From IMG/VR virus record IMGVR_UViG_3300020020_000002, positions 1 to 64,000 of that record: a stretch of 64,000 nucleotides of DNA; one strand, 5' to 3'. Under the pieces are notes generated by a model. That model ran no database searches. It worked only from the letters and a program-made list of their open reading frames with translations, and had not been told where the DNA came from. Made by a program: the position numbers and the translations under genes. This DNA comes from a virus. Shown here piece by piece: positions 3,943-15,104 of this stretch; position 1 is the first letter of the stretch, and every line of letters starts with the position of its first letter.

Positions 3943-6798
3943 GAGGTTCTGTGTGGCTGTGTAGAACGCGGCCGCCTCGGCATCGGTCAGGCCCAGCCCG
4001 ATCGACGCCATGCCTAAATATCCGCCATAGGGATAGAGCGGCGAGCCCGCGTTGTTGCGTGCGCCGATGAAGATCGGCCCACCCAGCGGCGTGGGTGGCG
4101 AAACCGTCGTGACCTTGGTCGCCACCGCGACGCCTCGGTTGAAACCTGCGGCGCTGCTGAGCGATCGGCGCGTGACGATGTTGTGCGAGAGTGCATTGGT
4201 CCACGAGCCCGCCATGCGACCGTCGGAAATGAGGTTGCAGTCGAAAGTCACCGAGGTGGCCGTGGCGATGAAGATGCCCTCCATGCTGATGATCGACTGG
4301 TTGCCGTCGTAGAGCCCGATAATGTCGCACGCCGATCCGAAGGCGCTGCGCGCGTAGACTGAAACGTGGAAGTCGGCGAGGTTCATAAACGCCGAGGAGT
4401 TGACCACCGGGTTGCCGTAGCCAGTCGTGCCGTTGAGTAGCACGCCGTTCAAGTCGTGCGTGACGCCGCCGACCCACGTCATCGGGTAACTCGACGACTT
4501 GAGGTTTTGCGCGTGTGTTGCTCCCGTGCCGCCAACAAACGGCCAAAGTGCCTGCATCTTGGTCCACACGCCAGCCGCCTTGAGTTCCGAAATGTAGACG
4601 TTGATTGCCGCCTTCGTTGTGGGTCCAGTGATGCCAGCGCGGGTGAAGAAATCAGCCGCCTCGGCGTGCATCGGAGAGATCGGCACAATGACCTGCACGA
4701 AACCCTGCGTGCCGTTGCCGCCTGCGCCGCTCGGCGTGCCGTTCACACCGCACCCACCGCCACCGCCGCCCGCACCGTAGCCGATACCGTTCGCGCCCGC
4801 GCCGCCCGCGATGCCGCTGCCGCCGCACCTGCCGCCACCGCCGCCAAGGCCGAAGCAATAAACCAAGTCGTTAGAGTTGGCCTGCCCTCCCGGCGTGCCT
4901 TGCGTGGTCAAGCCGCCGATGCCTCCCGGTAAAAGGGTCGAATTGCCGCTGCCCAAGGTGCCCGCGTTGCCGCCGTCGCCGCCGACATTTCCCGTGGTGA
5001 GCCCGCTGCCGCCACCGCCGCCCGTGGTTGCCATAAAAATCGGGATGTCGGCACCCCAACCCGGGGAACCTTGCCCGCCCGCGCCGCCGCCGGACGTGGA
5101 AAGTGCCGCGCCGTAGATGACGATGCCGCTCGTGAGACTCGCGCCGCCTGCCGGGTTGCCACCGCTGCCGCCGCCAGTGCCGAACCCGCCACCCTTGGCT
5201 TGCATGGTCGCGAAAACGCTCGTGCCACCCGCGACGCCGTTGATTCCGTCCGTGCCGGATGCCGCCTGCGCTGCGCCGCCCGCGCCTGCTGGACCGACGG
5301 TAACCGTCACCGTGGATGGCAAAAGCGAAACTTTCATGCGGGTTATCACGACGCCTGCGCCCGCGCCACCTGCGCCGCCTGTTCGCGCCGTGCCCGATCC
5401 ACCCACGCGCCCGCTGCCGCCGCCACCACCGCCGCCGACGAGCGTGACGTCAGCGTATGCGCTAGGGTTAGCGTTCGCCGGTTTCACCCACGTTCCACTT
5501 GTCGTGAAAGTCTGAATGTTCAGGCCCTCGACCGTGTCGACCGATGCACTGCTACCGCTTGGTCCTGTCGCGCCCGTTGGGCCGGTTGCACCCACGCCGC
5601 CTGCCGCGCCGCTTGGTCCCGTTGGGCCGGTCAATCCGGTTGGACCGACGACGCCTTGGATGCCCTGTGGTCCCGTCGCACCCGTCGTGCCCTTGATCCC
5701 GGTGGGTCCGGTCGCGCCACTGGGACCGCTCACGCCTTGTATTCCTTGCGGGCCTTGCAGACCTGTCGGGCCGGTCGGTCCTACCGCGCCCGCTGTTCCT
5801 GTCACGCCCGTTGGCCCGGTTGGACCGGCGACGCCTTGAGGGCCTTGGATGCCGGTCGGTCCCGTTGGTCCTGCCGGGCCTGCGCCACCCGGTGCGCCTG
5901 CCGTGCCGCTCGGGCCAGCCGGGCCGGTTGCGCCAGATGGTCCGATCGCACCTTGAGGGCCTTGAATTCCTGTCGGACCAGTGGGTCCGGCGACCCCTTG
6001 GGGCCCGGTTGGACCCACTGCGCCCGCTGTGCCAGTTACGCCGGTTGGACCCGTCGGACCCGCCGCTCCAGCGGGCCCTTGGGGCCCTGTGGGCCCTACT
6101 GCACCGGCAGGGCCGGTTGCGCCTGTGGGACCGGGCACAGTCGAGTTTGCTCCGGTTGGTCCCTGCGGGCCGGTTGCACCGCTCGGGCCGATCGCACCTT
6201 GGATGCCCTGCGGGCCGGTTGGTCCAGTCGCGCCGGTCAAGCCGATCGGACCAGTCGGACCTACTGGGCCGGTGGCTCCGATCGGACCCGTCACGCCGGT
6301 CGGTCCCATCGGGCCTTGGATGTTGCCCGCGTCGATCCATGTCGCGGTATCGGCATCCCAAATCCAAAGGTGGTCGTTGTCCTCGGACACGTAGGCGTCG
6401 CCATCCTCCATTCCGGCCGTCGGCAGGTCGCCCGCCGTCGGCACGGTGCCTTTGACGTTGATCCCGGTGCCTGCCGCGCCGGTTGCGCCGGTTGGGCCTT
6501 GCGCTCCGCTGGGGCCTTGTGGGCCGGTTGGCCCCTCGGGACCAGTCGCGCCCGTCAACCCGGTTGCCCCGGCTGGCCCGGTTTCACCGATCGGACCAGT
6601 CGCACCTGCCGGGCCGGTTGGTCCAGTCGGTCCTGCGCCGCCTGCGCCACCGCCGCCGAACGGCTCGATGTTGCCCAGCCAGTCGATCGTGTAGAACTCG
6701 TAGTCGGCCTTGCTGAGAAAGACGCGCTTGCGGCCGGTGGCGGGCAGGCTGGGGGGCTTGTTGACCGATTCCCACGTGATTGAGGTTTGTGGATCCAT
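3916..6798 (-). CDS. tail fibre: collagen-like G-X-Y repeats + glycine-rich domain + C-terminal lectin/LamG-like domain
   Basis: Track ORF; two long Gly-X-Y blocks separated by [26 protein letters not shown] (motif common in collagen-like phage fibres), a poly-Gly-rich block, then a ~270-aa globular C-terminus; ATG 6796-6798 shares one nt with the stop of the giant ORF (TGATG); GTG 6799-6801 is an alternative start. Confidence 0.8.
5556..6318 (-). repeat. collagen-like Gly-X-Y triplet repeat block 2 (coding)
   Basis: Continuous GPTG/GATG/GPQG triplets in the fibre translation; 9-nt periodic GGN-CCN-NNN DNA; boundaries approximate. Confidence 0.8.
6463..6657 (-). repeat. collagen-like Gly-X-Y triplet repeat block 1 (coding)
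   Basis: [52 protein letters not shown] in the fibre N-terminal region; boundaries approximate. Confidence 0.8.
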
Positions 6799-9700
6799 CA
6801 CCGAGCAAGGGCACCCTTTTTAGGCTTACCCTTGCCCTCGGACAACTTCAAACCACGCAGCGCAGGCTCCTTACCTTTGGCGCTCGGCGCTAGTCTTCCT
6901 CGTCCCTGTCCTGACCCGGGATTAGGCCTGTCTCCATAACGTAGATTTCCTCCAACGTCATCACCTCGCCGCGCTCGGCCATCGCCTTTTGCGACGCCTT
7001 TAGGTTCTCCACCATGGCTGGCTCTAGCCCACGCTGGAGTAGCGATTCCTCTTCCGATAAGTTGTTGTCGAGCTTTGGCATCAGGAAGAGCTTGCCATGT
7101 TCCGCGCGCCTTTGCAACCGCTGCCTTGTCGCGCCGCATCTTTGGCGAGTAGAGCCCGCGGATCGCTTCCCACGTGATGCTCTGCATCTGCCGGGGCAGA
7201 AGTCCGCGCTCCTCGGCCGCTTTTTTGTAAGCGTCGAGGTAGAGATGGTAGGATCCAGAGATCCCGAGCCCCTCACTGCCGGGCATACCCTTGGATCCGA
7301 AATTGTGCGTGACCTCCAGCGCCGAGGATCCGAGCGGCAGGATGTGCGCGGCCGCGACCGCGTGGGTGTCCATCGTGGCGTCGCCAAACGGCGTGTTGGG
7401 CGCGATGATGTTGTTGTAGAAATTGCGGACCTTGTGCTCGTTCGAGAGGTTGTCCGAAATGCTCGTGAGATCCCCGTTTTTGAGCATGCGCACGCCCTTC
7501 TTGATTTCCTCCATCGAGCCCCAGCCGTTGCGCTGCGGGGTGCCGTCGTCTTTCGCTGCCAGATGCATTGGATCGCCGTCGGGTGACACGACCCGGTAAT
7601 CCCGGCCGTGCAGGCTCTGCGCCAGCGCGCGGATCGCCCACGCCTGCAGGTGCGGATCTGCATCCAGCTCGGCGACACTCTTGCCGAGCATTTGCTCCAA
7701 CAGGGCGCGCCGTTTGTCGCGCGCCTTCTCGTGCAGTTGCTCGTTGTGGCTGCGTCGGCGCAGCGCCCCCACTTTTGTTTCGCCCGGCTTCGCCTTGCGT
7801 AGCTCTCCCGGCTTCGCCACGGCACCGCTAATCATGTCCTCCAGCTCCGCGCCGACTAATTCCGGCGTGATCTTGGTGTCTTGGTGGTTCTTCCACACGT
7901 TCATCAATTGCTCGGCTTGCGCCACGTTCATGAACCAGTCTTTCTGCGGACTGAGCGCCGCCAGCACGCCCGCGGCCTGCTCGGGTGTGTAGCCAAAGCG
8001 GCCGCCAAAGTCCTTCGCGATCTTATTCGCACCATCATACCACCGCGTGGCCGCAGCGCGCACCTCGGCCGGGAATGCGTCGTGCAGCGCGAGCAGGTTT
8101 TTCACCATCCAGTCGATGGTCTTTTGCCGCTTTACCTGCGGATCTTTTTCGCCGCGGATCTCCTGCGAGAGGTGTGGGTAGTTGAAGGCCTCCATCTGCC
8201 GAGCGAGCAGCTCGGGTGGCACGATGCCACCGTGGATGTTCGAGTCCTGCGGGGTTGGCGCTGGCTTGGCCGAGGTGCCTAGCTTGGCGGTGCCGACGCG
8301 CAGCGGATCGTCGACCGGGCTGGGCTCGCTGATCTTGGCCTCGCCGCCACCCGGCATGAGCTGTGCCTCGGGGGCTGTCGCTCTGATTGCATCCCGCGCC
8401 GCGACCGCGTCGTCGTAGCTCTCGTGCAGCGGCACCTGCTCGCGCTCTGCGTTGTAGTCGTAGTTGGGATCAACCGGTCGATTCGGATCGCGCGTCATGA
8501 ACACGATGTCCGGCTCGCCTGCTTTGTCATACGGCCAGCCCTCGGGCGCGTATTCGCGGTTGAACTTAATTCGGCCCGTGGGGCGGAACCCGATGTTCTG
8601 ATACAGGTTGGGGAGAAATCCGTTGATGTCGTAGGCGTCGAGCGTCTCGGCTCCCTGCTCTACCGCCTCTTTCAGGTGGTCGAGAATCTTTGCTTTTGAT
8701 CCCGGCTTTTTGAAGACCGAGACGAGATCCCCATCCGGTGTCACCGCGACGCCTGCGGTGTCGTCGTCTGCAAGGATGAGCTTGTAGCCCTCCTTTTGGT
8801 ATTCGCTTACGTCTTTGATTTCGACGGCGGCACCGAGCGGGTGACCTGCGACAGCTTCTGTGATCGCGCGGTGGAAGCGGTCACCTGTTTCAGCTCCTCC
8901 TGCGTGAGTTCGATACCCAGTGCCAGCGCGTTGTCCGACATCTTGGCCTTGATCTCCTCGGGGCTGTGTTTCTTGGCTGGTTTTTGTGGCTTGCTCATTT
9001 GGTCGAATTGTTTCGGCGGGCACTGTAGCACCTGTGTCAACGGCTTGCGCTAGCGCGCCCTTCTTGGCGGGAAGCGCCATCAGTTGATCGGGCGCGTAGG
9101 AGTCCAGTTCTTGCAGGCTGGTGATTTTGTGTGACGTTTCGTCCTGCTCGTGGAACGCGTAGATCTCCTCGCCCTCGCTCCAGCGACGGTGCGCGTCTTC
9201 CCGGTTCGAGATCGGCTCGCCCTCGCCGCCCCCGGGCATGAAATTGACCTCCTGCTGGCGCGTCATTCGCTCGATCGCTGCGCGCCGCATCTCCGCATCT
9301 CCGCGGGTATAGCTGACGGTCTTGATGCCCTGCTTTTCGAGCATCGATCGCAGCGCGGGATCAATCGAATCGGGCACGACCGCGGCCGCGAATTTTTTAC
9401 CCTCCAGCGGCACGATGTCGGACACCTTGCCCTCGAAATACTCGGTGGGCAGTTTTCGGATCTTGTCGAGAAACTCCTGCGTCATGGCAGCCATGTTCTC
9501 GTAGTTATCGCCGTAGACATTGCGCAGGTGCTTCTCATCACCCTCGATGAAATCGATCACGTCCCGCTCGGTCGTCTCGGGATCCATCTCCTGATCCTCG
9601 CGAATCGATTCGAGGTCTTCGCGCAGGCGTGCGAATTCGCGCGCCGCTTTCTTGGTGACGTTGGTCATCTCCTCCCTTGGGATCACTCTCTCACGGTCTG

Positions 9701-12700
9701 CGCCCATCTCTTCGAGTGCACCGTAGCCCTTGGCCACTCGCGCCCGCATGCCGCCCGCACCAAAGCCTTCACCTTCGCCACCGCGCAACTTTTCCGCCTT
9801 CATCACCGCCATGACGTTGTCGAGCGTGTGCTCGATGTCGGGCTTGCCTTCGACCTTGATGACATCCTTCGGTTTCGCGCCAGCTTCGTCCACCTTTTGC
9901 TGGATCCACTCGGCGACCTTTTCACGTTGGCCGGTCAGTTTTCCGATGAGTTGCATACGCAGCTCGTGCTCCTCCAGCTTCGTCGACGGGGCCTCCAAGA
10001 GCCCGTGCTCGCGCAGGTAGGCGTATTCACCTAGGTGGTTCCAGCTCGCTTCATCGAAGCCTCTGCGATTGATCGAATCGACGATCGATTGCGGCGTCCA
10101 TTCCTTGGGGCCATACGGGTTCTTCTGCGTGATCGGCCGGATCTCTTGCGCGTATTTCTCAAAGGCGTTGGCCACCTTGCTTGCGTTCTCGCCTTCATAC
10201 GTGGCCATCGTGTGCGGATAGCGCGGGCTGTAAATGTCGGCGTCAAACCACTTCATCGCCGGGTTTTTCTGCGGGTCGACCAAGTCCTTCCCGCCGATCA
10301 GCGTGATCTCGCCAAAGCCGCCGAACTTGCTGCGATCGAGCCGCACGCCTGCGACACTAGGCATCGCCAGCCCGCCCATCTTGAATGCGTGACGCAGGGC
10401 ATCCTCGCTTAGGTTGTGCACGGCCCCCATGTTCCGGCGCGCGTCGGCCTCTTCGAGATTCCACTGGTCGGCCACTTTTTGTGCGTCGGCCGCGGTTTCG
10501 CCTTGATAGACAGGTTCTGTCTCGCCCTCGACCTCGACGAAGTGCTTGTCGCCTTTCTTGACCACCTTCGCGATCTCGACCTCGGGTTCCAGTGCACCCT
10601 TCTTGGCTTCGCCATCGCCGCCGCCGGGCATGTAGCTGAAATCGGGCAGCACCTTGCTCGACACGTCGGAATAGGCGACGTCGCCGCGGGCATCGCTTTC
10701 GCTCTCCCTGAATTCGGTGGGGAAGAGTTTATTTCGCACCTTGAACGCTTCTTTCGATGTGACCCACGAGGTTAGTGTGTCCTTGCCTAGGCGCTGCATC
10801 TCCTTGGCCATCTCGCGATACAGCGCCTCGCCGTAGCCCTTGCCGCGGGCGAAGGCCTCGACGTGCGAGCTGTTGACTTGGACGGTCCCGTCCGGCCGGT
10901 GCGTGTAGGCGATGTAGCCGACATCCTTCCCGCTGTCGTCTTGGATCTTGATCTCACCCCAGCCGCGCTTGGTGTCTTCCCGGGTGCTGGTCGTGTAGGG
11001 TGGCAGCTTGGCTTTGCGCTCATCGAGGGCCCGTTGCGATGGACCGCCGAACTCCTCGCCTGCCAACGTGCCTTTCGGCCGCTCTGCGATCGCTTCACCG
11101 CCGCCGGGCATGAAGCCAGCAGCGACGTTGCCCCAGTTGATGCCCTCGGGCGAGAACTCACCGGCCGGTGCTTCGAGGCCGACCTTGCGCACGATCGCAG
11201 GCTCGCCGCTCGGTGCGGTGCGCACGTCCTCGATCATGTCGGGGCTCAGATTCTCCCACACGCTTTCGAGAATGTCGCCCGTGCCAACGCGCGTCTCACC
11301 CGCCTTGTTCGTGTAGGTGAACTTGCCGCCTTTGTTGAGCATTGCGCGGAACGGATTGACGTCACCCGTTTGGTCGTCGACCGCCCACTGGTTTTCCTTG
11401 GCCACGCGTTGCGCGTCCTCGGCCTTGAGTTGCGTTTGCGGCTGCAGCGCGGGACGCTTGCGCACCTTGACGCCCGTCGCCCGGGCTGCTTCGTCGGCTG
11501 CGAGCTTGCGGGCGTGCTCGGCTGGCTTGCCGCTGATGTCGTAGTTCAGCGCCGCGTTGAGAATATCGAAGCGGCCGCGCTCGATCGGTATCGGCACGCC
11601 GGTTTGCGTCATGCCCTCCACCGGCCCGCTGCCGTCACCCTTGTAGCCGTTCTTGTGGTTCTCGACGTAGGCCTTGATGTCCTCGCGGATCGCCGGGTCG
11701 TTGATGTCGGCGTAGATCTTGGCCTTGGCTTGCTGCTCCGGTGTCAGGTGCGTCTTCGCTGCGCCGAGAAGTTTCGAGAGGTTGGCGACCAGCTTGTCGA
11801 GGCTGATGCCCCGCTGCAGCACCTTGCCGTTTTTCGTCACCTCGACGCCCGTGAAAACGATGCCCTTGTTTTCCTGCATGAGCTGGCGCGACTTTTTGCC
11901 TTTATCCAGCTCGTAGTCGCGCTTGCGTTCCTTGCCGGTGATGTCGTCGGGATCCACCGCCTTCTCCGCGCTCCAGTAGTCGACGTAGCGGATGTCGCCG
12001 CCCGAGTCGGCTGCTTGGATCTTCGCGATGTCGCCCTCGCCCATGCCGAGCTGCCGCACGAGCGCCCGGTGCTCGGGTTTGTTGAAGTCGAGGCGGCCGC
12101 TGTAGGCCACCCGGCCGGTGAGCGGATCTGTGCGACGCTGGAAAAGCCGTGGATCGCCCTCGGCGGCCTGATTGGCGAGATCGAGCGCCGCCTGATTGCC
12201 ATCGGGCGCGGCCTTGATGAGCGAATCGGCCGCATCGTCGTCGACCGTGCGTGCTGGCAGGATCCCGGTGGGTCTTCCGACGCCTTCCGATGGTGCTTCG
12301 GCCGGTGCAGGCGAAATTTGGGCCTCTTCGGCCGGTTTTGGCGCTGGGGGTGCCTCGCTGGAAGGGGTCACAGGCTCGCTAGGGCTCGATTCTGACGCTT
12401 TTGGCGCATTTTCCGGTGCTAGAGCGCCCTGACGGGGCTGGGAGGCCATTTCTGGCACCCCACCGGCCAGTGCTCCGCGCCCAAACGGCCCCACGCCGGT
12501 CGGTGTGGGCATTGGAGGCACAGGAACGCGTGCCGGGGCCGCTGGTGGCGCGGCTGGAGGCACCACAGGCGGCGCACCGGGGGCAGGCGGCCCGCCGGTT
12601 GGCGTCGGCGCTGGGGTTGGTCCCGCTGGCGGTGGCGTCGACGGGTCGACATTGAGCGCGGTGCGCGCCGCGGGTGACACGATCTGGCGCAGCGCATCGA

Positions 12701-15104
12701 GGTAGATGCCGGTGACCTCGGCGTTTTCCTTGTGGTTGAAATACGATCGTCCTCCGACCTCCCGCGGATCGATGCCAATCTTGCCGCCGAAAAACTCACC
12801 GATGCCGCGCTGGATCTTGTCGCGGATCCCTTCGGGAATGACGAGATCGGCCGTGCCCTTGGTCGAGAAAATGCGGCCCGCGGTTTCGGCGACGAACTCG
12901 TCGATCGCCTGCGCGTCGGTGAGCGGCCGCGCGCCGCTCTTTGTGAGTTCCTTGTTGTAGCCGTCGATGAACTGCTGGAATTCAGGCGTCGGCTTGCCGC
13001 TTTTGTCGGTGAGCTGCGCCTTGATCTTGCCCATTACGCCGTCGTAGAGCGGGCCTCCCTTGCCGCTGAACGCGCGCAGGATGTTTTGCGCGACGTGGCC
13101 ACCCATCTCGTGGCCTGCGACGTGGCCGAAGACACCTTTGCCCTCGGGCCCCATCATGCTCGGGTGCTCCGCGTTCACGTAGGCCTTGCCGTTATGCATC
13201 GCGAGGCCGCGATCGTTGCCTGCGGGCAGGCCGCGCTCGGCTTTGAAGGCGGCGTAATCGGCCGCGCTCAACGGCACGATCTCGCTCACGCCTTTTTGAC
13301 CCTGCGGGCCGGTCGTTTCCATGCCGCCCAGTGCGTCCGTCAATTCGTAGACCATGTTCTTTCCCGCCTCGGGCAGCCGTTGCACATAGCGTGCGCTGGC
13401 CTGACTCCACTTGTCGCCCCGCTGCGCCATCTCGGTGAAGCGCGCTTGGCCGTTCGCACGCATCGACGGCAGGATCGCCTTGGTGAACTGCGGCTTGAGC
13501 CCGCCGGTCAAGCTGCCCATCGCGCCGAACAGCGGTGCACCCTCGGAGAGCGCCGCAAAGTTACCCCAAAAGTTTTCTTTGTCGCCCGCCGCCATCGCGA
13601 GGTTGAGCGGTGCCGCACCGACTGGCGTCGCCAGCATGTCGATCACCGTGTTGCTGGCTCGCACCTTGGCGTTGGGGATCGCAGTCTTGGCGAATTTCGT
13701 GAGGGCTGGTGCGCCTGCGGTGGCCCGGGCTGCCTTGGCCGCCGCCTCGGTGGCTGGCGCGACCCACGTGCCGTTGGTCAGGGCTTCAAATCCCTGTTGG
13801 CGCAAAACCTTCGCTGCGCCGCCGATCTTCGCCAGCGCGCCCGCGGCGAGGATGCCCGCGCCGATCTTGCCCGCATTCTTCCAGTCGCCCTCGATGATCT
13901 TTTGCGCCGCGGCATAACCACCGCCCGCGGCCGCACCGCCGAGCACCAGCCTGCCGCCTTTCGTTGCGAGCACTTCCCCGGTGCCACCCAAGGCTGTGGC
14001 GAGCGCGCCACCCACGCGGCGCATGCCGGGCAGGCCGGGCGTTTTGATGAGCATGAGGTTCGTCGGATCCATGATCGCGCCGATCGCGGCTGTCGCACCC
14101 GGGTCGACCGGTTCCGCGCCGATGCGTTTCAGGTTTTCGGGCCCAAGGATTTCACTCACCGGCACGCCTTCGTTTCTCCACTTCATGTAGTCGGCCACCG
14201 CGCCTTCATCGAGCGGGATGCCGCTCGCGAGTTTGATGTCTTTGCGCGTCGCGCCGACGGTCTGGCCGAACTTGTTTTTCAGCGCCTCGCGTTTCGCGTC
14301 TTCGGGTTCCAATTGCGCGACCATTACGTTGACCTCGGCGCTTTCCTTGGGCGTCAGCGGCTTGCCTGCGCGCGCTTTCATGAGCGCGGTCGTGAGCATC
14401 GGGCCGTAGATCTGCGCGTAGGGCACCTTCTTGCCCGCCTGCAGGATCTCGCCGCGTCCTTTCAAATAATCGGGCAGCACGCCGACCGCTGCGTCGATGC
14501 GCGCCGGATCGGCCGCGAATTTCTTTTGCGCATAGTCGAGCGGCAGTTGTTCGCCCCAATCGAGCAACCCGCGAGCGAGCCGCTCGCCGCTTTGGCCCGC
14601 CATTTGCACGCCGATCACGTTCTCGGCCGTGGTGGTCGCTGCGTTCGGGTCGCTGAGAATTGCTTGGCCCGCTTGCTTGAACAAGCGCGGCACGCTCATT
14701 GCCATGCCGCGGCCCCAGCTCCCGAATCCGCTGGCCACGTCACCAAACGTCATCTTGTGGCTGTAGTGCGGGTAGGTCTTGCCCTCGGGATCCTTGAAGC
14801 CGCGCGCCGCCCGCGCTTCGTGGACCTTGAACGCGAGATCCTGACTGGCCGGATCCTCATACTTCGCGGCGAACGTGATCTCGTCAAAATTCGGATCGTC
14901 GATCGTCTTTTGCAGGTCGTCCGGTTTTTCGCCGAGCAGATCCTCCAGACTTTGCGACGGTTTCGCCGGGGGTGGGAATTTTTCCTGCGCCGCGGCGGTG
15001 CCTTTGCCGCCTGTGGCGAGGTCGAGTTCAGCGATGTCGGTGATCGGCTCCTGTGGTAGGTCGGCCGCTAGATCATCGTCGAGCAAAGAGGAAAGTTGAG
15101 GCAT
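6798..15104 (-). CDS. giant multidomain virion/ejection (polyvalent-type) protein; 2768 codons as one open frame, 3' limit and internal continuity uncertain
   Basis: Track ORF. Gly/Ala-rich glycine-zipper-like stretch (about 13690-13980), Pro-rich linker (about 12400-12700), GNAT-type motif [15 protein letters not shown], second acetyltransferase-like module ([18 protein letters not shown]...YAPEGW), conserved C-terminal module (RWYDGAN...ALSPQKDW..N; KVRNFYNNI). Sits where T7-like phages place internal core proteins, between internal proteins and the fibre. Confidence 0.7.
6890..7081 (-). CDS. small acidic protein (63 aa) overlapping the 3' end of the giant ORF in another frame
   Basis: C-terminal part of track ORF 6890..7825 from ATG 7079-7081 ([63 protein letters not shown]); natural composition and better G/C third positions than the overlapping giant-ORF frame. 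Confidence 0.5.
   Translation of the reverse strand: MPKLDNNLSEEESLLQRGLEPAMVENLKASQKAMAERGEVMTLEEIYVMETGLIPGQDRDEED
8807..8998 (-). CDS. alternative-frame ORF inside the giant gene (63 aa; [38 protein letters not shown]...)
   Basis: Track ORF 8807..9040 from ATG 8996-8998. Over its first 40 codons I count 31/40 G/C third positions versus 13/40 for the giant-ORF frame over the same DNA. Confidence 0.35.
   Translation of the reverse strand: MSKPQKPAKKHSPEEIKAKMSDNALALGIELTQEELKQVTASTARSQKLSQVTRSVPPSKSKT

What the first reader, a model, noticed from the sequence alone, without database searches (positions are those of the whole stretch)
8807..9060. Coding signal leaves the giant-ORF frame for about 115-190 nt: embedded ORF, fusion scar, frameshift or indel
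Between about 9050 and 8880 the giant-ORF frame encodes an odd Q/T/G/R-rich stretch ([45 protein letters not shown]). I count only 13/40 G/C third positions there.

A different minus-strand frame starts at ATG 8996-8998 and reads [39 protein letters not shown].... It has natural composition and 31/40 G/C third positions.

Just upstream, the giant frame reads ..[10 protein letters not shown]. This resembles the real C-terminus KKGALAR-stop, and the Gln codon CAA is one transition from TAA.

Downstream of about 8880 the giant frame again looks like genuine coding sequence ([24 protein letters not shown]...).

Possible explanations:
- two ancestral genes fused by stop loss plus an indel, leaving an out-of-frame fossil
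- an overprinted small gene
- programmed frameshifting
- a pair of assembly indels
Basis: seen in the sequence. Interest (0 to 1): 0.6.

Follow-up and report, generated by a model that had tools for sequence, protein, structure and literature searches.

The report
Small genes hidden inside giant gene
In the spacer between two working parts of a giant phage protein gene, a second reading frame most likely carries its own small gene; a second, better-supported hidden gene lies at the gene's tail, the pattern is kept in many related uncultivated phages, and what the small proteins do is unknown.

Summary
Over about 9050-8870 the 2768-codon giant ORF (minus strand, 6798-15104) loses its codon signature (12/40 G/C third positions; none of 1028 background windows has 13 or fewer). 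The +1 frame gains it (31/40).

The same switch occurs at the giant ORF's tail (about 7130-6890).

It is not an assembly error. Contigs from two other soil studies cover the stretch without indels.

Best reading: two 63-codon genes are overprinted in the +1 frame, on a stop-free linker and on the tail of a phage polyvalent protein.

The tail ORF (6890-7081) belongs to a small-protein family found at the end of DUF7178 modules in dozens of viral contigs:
- substitutions there switch to the +1 pattern;
- the ORF is a separate gene in a few contigs;
- 514 database clusters match its sister type;
- the giant frame stays stop-free over it in 49 of 50 loci (4.1 expected).

- relatives keep a +1 ORF there, with +1-type substitutions (49:32:24 against 74:50:212);
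- a strain variant puts a +1 stop three codons before its ATG;
- a copy of the phage's gene-start motif lies 38 nt upstream.

Expression is untested and the function is unknown.

The parts
6798..15104 (-). Giant ORF (2768 aa), a multidomain polyvalent-type virion protein; this is 'frame 0'.
   Evidence: Pfam hits: GNAT at residues 1377-1449, PBECR5 at 1555-1746, DUF7178 at 2325-2403. 77 giant homologues carry the same modules.
8883..9065 (-). Frame-0 linker (residues 2014-2074, from 'KKGALAQ' to the start of the module). It is polar, stop-free and has atypical codons.
   Evidence: GC3 of 0.30-0.47. Negative codon-usage score in frame 0. Homologues have unalignable polar linkers here.
8807..8998 (-). 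Small ORF 1, the subject of the finding: +1 frame, 63 codons plus TAA. Only about the first 40 codons look coding; the rest overlaps the conserved start of the next module.
   Evidence: Relatives keep a +1 ORF with a Met at the same place. Substitution pattern in relatives. Strain variants.
8939..8941 (-). Second in-frame ATG of small ORF 1 (codon 20), a possible alternative start.
   Evidence: Its position, 20 codons before the module, matches the Met of relatives at -20 to -26. GAGGAG lies 12 nt upstream.
9050..9052 (-). TAG stop in the +1 frame that opens the small-ORF-1 frame. It is also the point where a strain variant swaps the upstream module.
   Evidence: In one search, X4 replaces 9051-9222 (172 nt) with 76 nt, a difference of 32 codons that stays in frame.
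9035..9056 (-). Copy of the phage's gene-start cassette motif GCAAGCCGTTG (9048-9038). It is flanked by the palindrome GCGCTAGCGC (9056-9047) and overlaps a TTGACA (9040-9035).
   Evidence: The exact 11-mer occurs 5 times in the window. With one mismatch allowed there are 14 hits against 2.1 expected. Most full copies lie 14-24 nt before a gene's ATG. Here the distance is 38 nt and the usual upstream TTGAC is missing.
8357..8882 (-). Acetyltransferase-like module (residues 2075-2250), translated in frame 0.
   Evidence: 46-55% identical to the same module in many viral contigs. Annotated as 'acetyltransferase' in Streptomyces phages. No Pfam or PDB sequence match.
7029..8132 (-). DUF7178 module, ending at the conserved 'P-x-W' (W2692).
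6890..7081 (-). Small ORF 2: +1 frame, 63 codons plus stop, acidic, predicted three-helix domain.
   Evidence: 59% identical to the +1 ORF of L091, against 42% for frame 0 on the same DNA. Family alignment A4. AlphaFold2 pLDDT 78, core 85-91.
6798..7028 (-). Frame-0 tail after DUF7178. It is Gly/Arg-rich and read across small ORF 2; its last ~30 codons regain a frame-0 codon signature and end in 'KKGALAR'.

Best explanation
The stretch 8807-8998 (minus strand) is most likely a small protein-coding gene overprinted in the +1 frame. It lies on the disordered linker that joins two modules of a giant phage polyvalent (virion-packaged, probably ejected) protein.

Two products are read from the same DNA.

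1. Ribosomes on the giant frame pass straight through. Here that frame only has to stay free of stop codons and polar, so its amino-acid sequence is a by-product of the other frame. That explains the odd Q/T/G/R-rich stretch and the A/T-rich third positions.
2. Ribosomes that start at ATG 8998 (or at ATG 8941) make a short peptide of about 40 meaningful residues: a Lys-rich start followed by an apparently amphipathic segment (not modelled). Its remaining ~23 codons run into the conserved start of the acetyltransferase-like module and are probably by-product.

A second, better supported instance sits at the tail of the same gene (6890-7081). It encodes a folded acidic three-helix protein from a family that accompanies DUF7178 modules in many phages.

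**Shown**
- The frame switch in codon signature.
- Purifying selection on +1 in relatives.
- Selection for an open giant frame over the tail ORF in related loci.
- Absence of assembly error.

**Inferred**
- Independent initiation, possibly helped by a degenerate copy of the phage's own gene-start cassette 38 nt upstream.
- That the peptide is made at all.

**Speculative**
- That each small protein is a partner (chaperone, inhibitor or regulator) of the module it travels with.
For: **In the window**
- GC3 is 12/40 in the giant frame and 31/40 in +1. None of 1028 background windows is that low.
- The codon-usage score switches to +1 from about 9050 to 8870 and back.
- By position in the +1 frame, G+C is about 0.60 / 0.33 / 0.75. 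That is the genome's normal coding periodicity.

**Near-identical strains in two other soil studies** (codon positions worked out by hand)
- There are no indels over 8318-9050.
- Inside the ORF one change was seen, at 8969. It is synonymous in +1 and changes the residue in the giant frame.
- The change at 8807 turns the +1 stop TAA into TAG, and changes Ser to Gly in the giant frame.
- Variant X4 has TAA in the +1 frame at 9010-9008, three codons before the retained ATG.
- In the flanking single-coding DNA, 9 of 10 changes are at giant-frame third positions.

**Relatives**
- Among the relatives whose module is at least 46% identical, the +1 stretch is 57-147 codons long. It has an ATG 13-50 codons before the module in nearly all of them, often just after a +1 stop. 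+2 stretches are mostly short and carry no ATG.
- In 10 related pairs, substitutions in the 30 codons before the module fall 49:32:24 on giant-frame positions 1:2:3. Inside the module they fall 74:50:212 (chi-square p = 5e-12). Position 1 exceeds position 3 in 8 of 9 informative pairs.
- Codon by codon, the +1 residues Y, S and A-L-T-L-Q are kept through synonymous changes, while giant-frame third positions do not vary.

**Local gene-start features**
- An exact copy of the 11-mer GCAAGCCGTTG is present. Elsewhere this motif sits before gene starts.
- The start reads ATGAGCAAG, like the ATGAGCAAC of the cassette genes.
- Most genes of this phage lack a Shine-Dalgarno site, so its absence here is not a problem.

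**The sister ORF at 6890-7081 shows the phenomenon is real in this gene family**
- The +1 diversity pattern appears in five independent clusters. One example: p1 0.43, p2 0.11, p3 0.02, against 0.12 / 0.01 / 0.54 upstream.
- It is a separate gene in L113, L152 and L154.
- 514 called small-protein clusters match the sister-type (type B) profile.
- The giant frame is stop-free over it in 49 of 50 loci, against 4.1 expected.
Against: - There is no expression or peptide evidence of any kind.
- The small-ORF-1 peptide is poorly conserved between distant relatives. Smith-Waterman scores for +1 (30.6) barely exceed those for the giant frame (27.6) and +2 (26.2).
- No homologue was found by phmmer in 1.8 billion representatives, and there is no Pfam or PHROG family.
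- Profile comparison with the tail-ORF family is not significant.
- Long +1 open stretches are common in these giant ORFs. The per-locus empirical p has a median of 0.18. A +1 frame over a polar linker is also stop-poor by composition alone.
- In this high-G+C window the giant frame would stay open by chance about a quarter of the time.
- Against a uniform spread, the 49:32:24 skew reaches only p of about 0.01.
- The strain data rest on one or two substitutions, and the low diversity could reflect recent recombination.
- The cassette motif copy is incomplete (no upstream TTGAC, and 38 nt rather than about 15 nt to the ATG).
- No structure was predicted for small ORF 1.
Confidence: 0.72

Rival explanations
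1. Relic or non-protein constraint. Under this reading the +1 signal is either the fading trace of an ancestral reading frame (a compensated pair of frameshifts, or a gene fusion) or reflects selection on an RNA or DNA element such as an internal promoter or operator. No separate peptide is made.
For: - The small-ORF-1 peptide is weakly conserved.
- It has no homologues.
- A regulatory-motif copy lies at its 5' edge.
- A module boundary sits at 9050.
- In the near-strain comparison diversity is lower than single-frame +1 coding alone predicts.
Against: - The layout persists in relatives down to about 46% module identity and across 45-63% G+C. A relic would have decayed.
- Conserved +1 residues are kept through synonymous codon changes.
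- Substitution counts follow the +1 order: third > first > second position.
- The window's +1 codon usage is fully that of the phage.
Confidence: 0.14
2. Programmed +1 ribosomal frameshifting. A fraction of the ribosomes on the giant frame would shift into +1 after 'KKGALA' and stop at 8807, giving a truncated isoform with a special C-terminal peptide.
For: - The +1 frame opens (TAG 9052-9050) just after a module boundary.
- Phages commonly use frameshifts to make two isoforms. This rests on established knowledge of lambda G/GT and T7 10A/10B.
Against: - No slippery or stall motif is visible by eye between 9050 and 8998.
- Variant X4 has a +1 TAA at 9010-9008, leaving only three codons before the ATG.
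- Relatives have a Met shortly after a +1 stop.
- The sister ORF has its Met directly after a +1 stop in many loci, and stands alone as a gene in L113, L152 and L154.
Confidence: 0.07
3. Artefact: either two compensating assembly indels, or a chance fluctuation in composition.
For: This is a single metagenome-derived record. The giant frame is open by chance with probability of about 0.26 given the +1 protein.
Against: - Contigs from two other studies cover 8318-8974 and 8683-9050 with 0 gaps.
- None of 1028 background windows has so low a GC3.
- The same pattern occurs twice in this gene and in many independent viral contigs.
Confidence: 0.02

Closest known systems
Rz1 embedded in Rz (phage lambda spanin genes)
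   Same: A small gene lies wholly inside a larger one in the +1 frame, has its own start, and is kept across many phages. This comparison rests on established knowledge.
   Different: Rz1 is a lipoprotein with a signal sequence, and both partners form one lysis complex. Here the small proteins have no lipobox or signal peptide. The host gene is a giant multidomain virion protein, and the host frame over the overlap is only a stop-free spacer or tail.
Overprinted genes of phiX174 and other small viruses (E in D, K and B in A), and overprinting on disordered regions in general (review PMC8227390, seen only as an abstract)
   Same: One DNA stretch codes in two frames. One frame carries the constraint and the other is compositionally odd and disordered.
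   Different: Those cases are in tiny genomes under size pressure. This one is in a genome of over 64 kb, and it recurs at module junctions of polyvalent proteins and moves with the module.
Polyvalent proteins of phages and conjugative elements (Iyer et al. 2017, PMC5512222)
   Same: The host gene has the defining look: many unrelated effector-type domains (GNAT, PBECR5, DUF7178 and others) in one giant polypeptide, shuffled between relatives.
   Different: A term search of that paper found no mention of frameshifts, overlapping genes, linkers or small proteins. Embedded genes in the linkers appear not to have been described there.
Programmed-frameshift isoforms (lambda G/GT, T7 10A/10B, dnaX)
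   Same: A second frame that becomes coding partway through a gene.
   Different: Those need a slippery site and have no separate start. Here there is a Met after a +1 stop, stand-alone versions exist, and no slippery site was seen.
Toxin domain plus adjacent immunity gene cassettes of polymorphic toxin systems
   Same: A small gene stays glued to one particular enzymatic module and is exchanged together with it. This is an analogy only.
   Different: Immunity genes lie after the toxin gene, not inside it. No binding or neutralising activity has been shown for these small proteins.

Membership tests
Overprinted (embedded, out-of-frame) protein-coding gene | ORF lies inside another gene on the same strand in a different frame | tested here: met
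   8807-8998 and 6890-7081 are both +1 relative to the giant ORF 6798-15104.
Overprinted (embedded, out-of-frame) protein-coding gene | Purifying selection acts on the embedded frame (changes concentrate at its third positions) | tested here: met
   Tail ORF: clear in 5 clusters. ORF 1 position: 49:32:24 against 74:50:212, p = 5e-12, plus the codon-level view. In the window's own lineage only 1-2 informative changes were seen.
Overprinted (embedded, out-of-frame) protein-coding gene | Own translation start | tested here: inconclusive
   There are ATGs at 8998 and 8941. A +1 stop lies just upstream in variant X4 and in many relatives. Shine-Dalgarno-like motifs occur in some relatives. None is present in the window, but most genes of this phage lack one. 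A partial gene-start cassette motif lies 38 nt upstream.
Overprinted (embedded, out-of-frame) protein-coding gene | The product is made | not testable with these tools
   No run on record as RNA holds the stretch. No proteomics data are available.
Small-protein family at the end of DUF7178 modules (alignments A4 and A5; unnamed) | Sequence similarity to family members, and the same position overlapping the 'P-x-W' end of DUF7178 | tested here: met
   This holds for small ORF 2 only. It is 59% identical over 51 residues to L091 and 16-50% identical to the 18 other members of A4, at the same position. Types A and B are not linked significantly by profile comparison.
Small-protein family at the end of DUF7178 modules (alignments A4 and A5; unnamed) | Membership of small ORF 1 (the finding itself) | tested here: not met
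   hhalign of A6 against A4 gives E = 0.12 over 8 columns. Small ORF 1 sits before the acetyltransferase-like module, not after DUF7178. It is treated here as a separate positional family (A6).
Programmed ribosomal frameshift site | Slippery or stall sequence, with the alternative frame open from the shift site | tested here: not met
   No such motif was seen by eye in 9050-8998. Variant X4 closes the +1 frame until three codons before the ATG.
Polyvalent protein (host gene) | Several unrelated conflict-type domains in one polypeptide, shuffled among relatives | tested here: met
   Pfam finds GNAT, PBECR5 and DUF7178. Homologues combine the same modules with ART-PolyVal, LPD38 and others in different orders.

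The most novel reading that the evidence does not exclude
Modules of phage polyvalent proteins may carry their own small partner genes, written in the +1 frame of the adjoining linker. A module and its partner would then travel as one cassette when modules are shuffled. The partner could be a chaperone, an inhibitor that keeps the enzyme silent in the producing cell, or a packaging adaptor. The giant frame over the partner gene would be kept only as a stop-free tether. On this reading the giant 'single genes' are compact operons read in two frames, and a widespread class of small phage proteins has been missed because gene callers do not report ORFs inside longer ones.
Probability: 0.3. Interest if true: 0.8.

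Novelty: new variant of a known kind. Interest (0 to 1): 0.66.

Why it matters
- Gene callers report the giant ORF and hide what lies inside it. The full-length database hits came mostly from short contigs where the giant gene is cut off.
- If the small proteins are made, phage polyvalent proteins are not single-product genes. Hundreds of uncultivated phages would then carry an unannotated small-protein family tied to DUF7178, and probably a second one tied to the acetyltransferase-like module.
- The system is a clean natural example of dual coding in which both constraints can be measured: the amino-acid sequence in one frame, and mere openness in the other.
- It gives a concrete, testable handle on how multi-effector virion proteins are handled before packaging.
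- It is also a practical warning for annotation and for engineering. Changes that are 'silent' in the linker of the giant gene are not silent in the small ORF.

Tried and rejected
**Searches that found nothing**
- blastn of 8300-9700 against GenBank phages gave no match.
- tblastn of the two tail-ORF types against the same collection gave no match. No cultured relative is at hand.
- phmmer of small ORF 1 against 1.8 billion representatives gave only one repetitive hit, judged spurious.
- A word-based search with small ORF 2 found no candidates.
- Pfam and PHROGs scans of the small ORFs found nothing above noise.
- Foldseek of the small-ORF-2 model against the PDB gave no match with E <= 0.001. 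A three-helix bundle is a generic fold.
- The Atlas look-up gave only an unnamed 52-aa viral cluster for the stand-alone version, and nothing usable for the window's ORF.
- PDB sequence searches with the two module profiles found nothing.
- The sigma-70 consensus promoter scan of 6600-9400 found none.

**Tests that were not decisive**
- Profile comparisons of type A against type B, and of the ORF 1 family against type A, were not significant.
- Frame-wise Smith-Waterman scores among distant relatives did not separate the frames in the linker.
- Length of the +1 open stretch, taken alone, is not unusual per locus.
- A resemblance seen by eye, between +1 ORFs of distant loci ('SYDQEF') and an in-frame tail ('SYDDEF') in other giant proteins, was not supported by BLAST.

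**Not available**
No result exists.
- No RNA holder is listed for the stretch.

**Considered and dropped**
- Low-G+C horizontal origin of the two stretches was considered. First and second codon positions are G+C-rich there, so this was dropped.
- A DNA-level repeat as the source of 'KKGAL' was considered. The three copies use different codons, so this was dropped.
Full report
**What is there**

The window is a virus record with 62.5% G+C. Its minus strand carries a 2768-codon ORF at 6798-15104. Pfam finds GNAT, PBECR5 and DUF7178 in it. Seventy-seven giant homologues combine the same modules in other orders. This is the architecture of phage polyvalent proteins (PMC5512222).

The finding concerns the linker between a short module ending in 'KKGALA' (residue 2014) and an acetyltransferase-like module starting at residue 2075 (window 8882).

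- In the giant frame, 12 of 40 third positions are G/C over 9014-8895. In the +1 frame from ATG 8998, 31 of 40 are.
- Among 1028 windows of 40 codons from convincing genes of this phage, the minimum is 15.
- A codon-usage log-likelihood trained on the phage's own genes puts +1 above the giant frame from about 9050 to about 8870, then reverses.
- Read in +1, the G+C by codon position (about 0.60 / 0.33 / 0.75) is the genome's normal coding periodicity. Read in the giant frame it is not.
- An unconstrained linker would drift towards uniform high G+C at all three positions. The periodicity therefore needs selection, present or recent, in +1.
- The same switch occurs at about 7130-6890, over a second 63-codon +1 ORF at the tail of the giant gene.

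**It is not an assembly error**

- Contigs from soil metagenomes of two other studies cover 8318-8974 and 8683-9050 with no gaps.
- Viral contigs with about 50% G+C, whose module is about 50% identical, show the same layout. The giant frame is continuous and the +1 ORF starts with an ATG at the corresponding place.

**The tail ORF shows that the phenomenon is biological**

I fetched 80 viral loci with the C-terminal half of DUF7178. In most of the 56 non-redundant ones (35-68% G+C), the +1 frame at the conserved 'P-x-W' end of the domain encodes a recognisable small protein with its own Met. That Met often follows a +1 stop directly. Some loci have Shine-Dalgarno-like motifs upstream.

Two sequence types exist:
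- A type with 'LP(L/V)TRENYL'.
- The type to which the window's ORF belongs. The window's ORF is 59% identical over 51 residues to the +1 ORF of a 45% G+C contig, while the giant frame on the same DNA is 42% identical.

Nucleotide diversity by codon position switches at the domain end. Upstream, variation sits at giant-frame third positions (for example 0.12 / 0.01 / 0.54). Fifteen to 29 codons after the W it sits at giant-frame first positions (0.43 / 0.11 / 0.02), which are +1 third positions. Four further clusters show the same switch.

Further support:
- In L113, L152 and L154 the DUF7178 ORF stops right after 'P-x-W', and the small protein follows as a separate gene.
- A profile of the type-B family finds 514 clusters of called 55-85-aa 'hypothetical proteins' with no Pfam family.
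- AlphaFold2 folds the window's tail ORF as a three-helix domain, with pLDDT 78 overall and 85-91 in the core.

The giant frame is also under selection there. I redrew synonymous codons of each small ORF from the locus's own usage. This leaves the giant frame stop-free in an expected 4.1 of 50 loci. It is stop-free in 49. So this is true dual coding: amino-acid sequence in +1, openness in frame 0.

In the window, the last ~30 codons of the giant frame regain a coding signature and end in the recurrent 'KKGALAR' motif. That gives a reason for reading through.

I fetched 80 viral loci with the acetyltransferase-like module.

- Among the relatives whose module is at least 46% identical, the +1 stretch over the last 20 linker codons is 57-147 codons long. 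It has an ATG 13-50 codons before the module in nearly all of them, often just after a +1 stop. +2 stretches are mostly short and carry no ATG.
- Openness alone is weak evidence. Such +1 stretches are common in these ORFs, and a polar linker has few T at second positions, so it has few +1 stops.
- The substitution data are stronger. In ten related pairs, the 30 codons before the module changed at giant-frame positions 1:2:3 as 49:32:24. Inside the module the counts are 74:50:212 (p = 5e-12). Position 1 exceeds position 3 in 8 of 9 informative pairs.
- Codon by codon, seven divergent loci keep the +1 residues Y, S and A-L-T-L-Q through synonymous changes, while the giant-frame third positions there do not vary. 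One giant-frame Phe is also invariant, which points to a constraint in both frames.
- The peptide as a whole is poorly conserved and has no database relatives.

In the window's own lineage (codon positions worked out by hand):
- One substitution was seen inside the ORF, at 8969. It is synonymous in +1 and changes the residue in the giant frame.
- The change at 8807 keeps the +1 stop (TAA to TAG) and changes Ser to Gly in the giant frame.
- Variant X4 has five changes just upstream of the ATG that create a +1 TAA three codons before it.
- Nine of ten changes in the flanking single-coding DNA are at giant-frame third positions.

**How it may be expressed**

- Most genes of this phage have no Shine-Dalgarno site but A/C-rich leaders, as does ATG 8998.
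- About ten genes are preceded by a cassette: TTGAC, 4 nt, a 12-nt near-palindrome GCAA(G/C)(C/G)G(C/G)TTGC, then 14-24 nt to the ATG. Six of those genes begin ATGAGCAAC.
- An exact copy of the 11-mer GCAAGCCGTTG lies at 9048-9038, 38 nt before ATG 8998, and small ORF 1 begins ATGAGCAAG.
- This copy lacks the upstream TTGAC. A TTGACA overlaps its 3' end instead.
- I take this as a hint of independent expression, not as proof.
- The strain variant swaps the upstream module exactly at 9050/9051, two bases before this motif, and stays in frame (172 nt replaced by 76 nt). So motif, small ORF and module behave as one cassette. In the ~50% G+C relatives, too, similarity begins just before the linker and the upstream modules differ.

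**Rivals**

- *Frameshifting* is disfavoured by the +1 stops just before the Met, the stand-alone versions of the sister ORF, and the lack of a slippery site.
- *A relic frame* is disfavoured by persistence across deep divergence and by the synonymous-change pattern.
- *Artefact* is excluded as far as sequence data allow.

**Function**

- Function is unknown. There is no Pfam, PHROG or PDB match, and no cultured phage carries it.
- My working guess is that each small protein is a partner of the module it accompanies. This rests only on linkage.
- The one available binding prediction could not be run.

**Comparison with known systems**

- The nearest known things are embedded genes such as Rz1 in Rz and the overprinted genes of small phages.
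- What differs is the setting. The small genes sit in linkers and tails of giant multi-effector virion proteins, the host frame is reduced to a stop-free tether, the arrangement recurs at module junctions, and it moves with the module.
- A term search of the main survey of polyvalent proteins found no mention of overlapping genes, linkers or small proteins. 'DUF7178' occurs in no held paper.
- I class it as a new variant of a known kind.

Noticed in passing
window 9051-9222 (minus strand): A near-identical strain in another soil metagenome (run X4) replaces these 172 nt, the short module before 'KKGALA', with 76 other nt. The difference is 32 codons and stays in frame. This shows module swapping at strain level, with one breakpoint exactly at 9050/9051.
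   Followed up: partly
window, about 10 sites (for example 56296, 50067, 47946, 47404, 46798, 37181, 3910, 2324, 1047; minus strand): Gene-start cassette: TTGAC, 4 nt, the near-palindrome GCAA(G/C)(C/G)G(C/G)TTGC, then 14-24 nt to the ATG. Six of the genes begin ATGAGCAAC. The spacing suggests very short or absent leaders and a dedicated factor that reads the palindrome.
   Followed up: partly
window 6801-6890 and residues 1501, 2014, 2762 of the giant ORF: 'KKGAL' recurs three times with different codons, each time near a module end, and four 'MPGGG(E/D)' motifs mark module starts. Together they look like punctuation of the polyprotein, possibly processing or docking sites.
   Followed up: no
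L055, L057, L062, L054, L061, L066, L075, L079 (30-90 codons before the acetyltransferase-like module): Distant relatives carry other discrete +1 ORFs of 44-91 codons, bounded by stops and with a Met near the start, many ending in '...GF' followed by a stop. Between L057 and L062 the +1 peptide differs at 3 of 30 residues where the giant frame differs at 10 of 30. Embedded ORFs at module junctions may therefore be more varied than the two families described.
   Followed up: partly
L113:2053-2208, L152:2030-2209, L154:1973-2200: These are the loci where the DUF7178 ORF ends at 'P-x-W' and the small protein is a free-standing gene. The L113 version lacks the disordered first ~20 residues. This suggests that the part overlapping DUF7178 elsewhere is a dispensable leader.
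   Followed up: partly
L006-L037, giant ORFs outside the junction studied: Other +1 open stretches of 90-220 codons exist inside the homologous giant ORFs. They were not examined for coding signal.
   Followed up: no
L127, L134, L128, L139 (about 10 nt before the small-ORF ATG): The conserved DUF7178 residues 'L-(E/D)-E-A-R-N-E' are encoded by GAGGAGGC.CG.AATGAAG. This doubles as a Shine-Dalgarno-like site plus the start codon of the small ORF. Part of that 'protein motif' may therefore be kept for translation initiation in the other frame.
   Followed up: no
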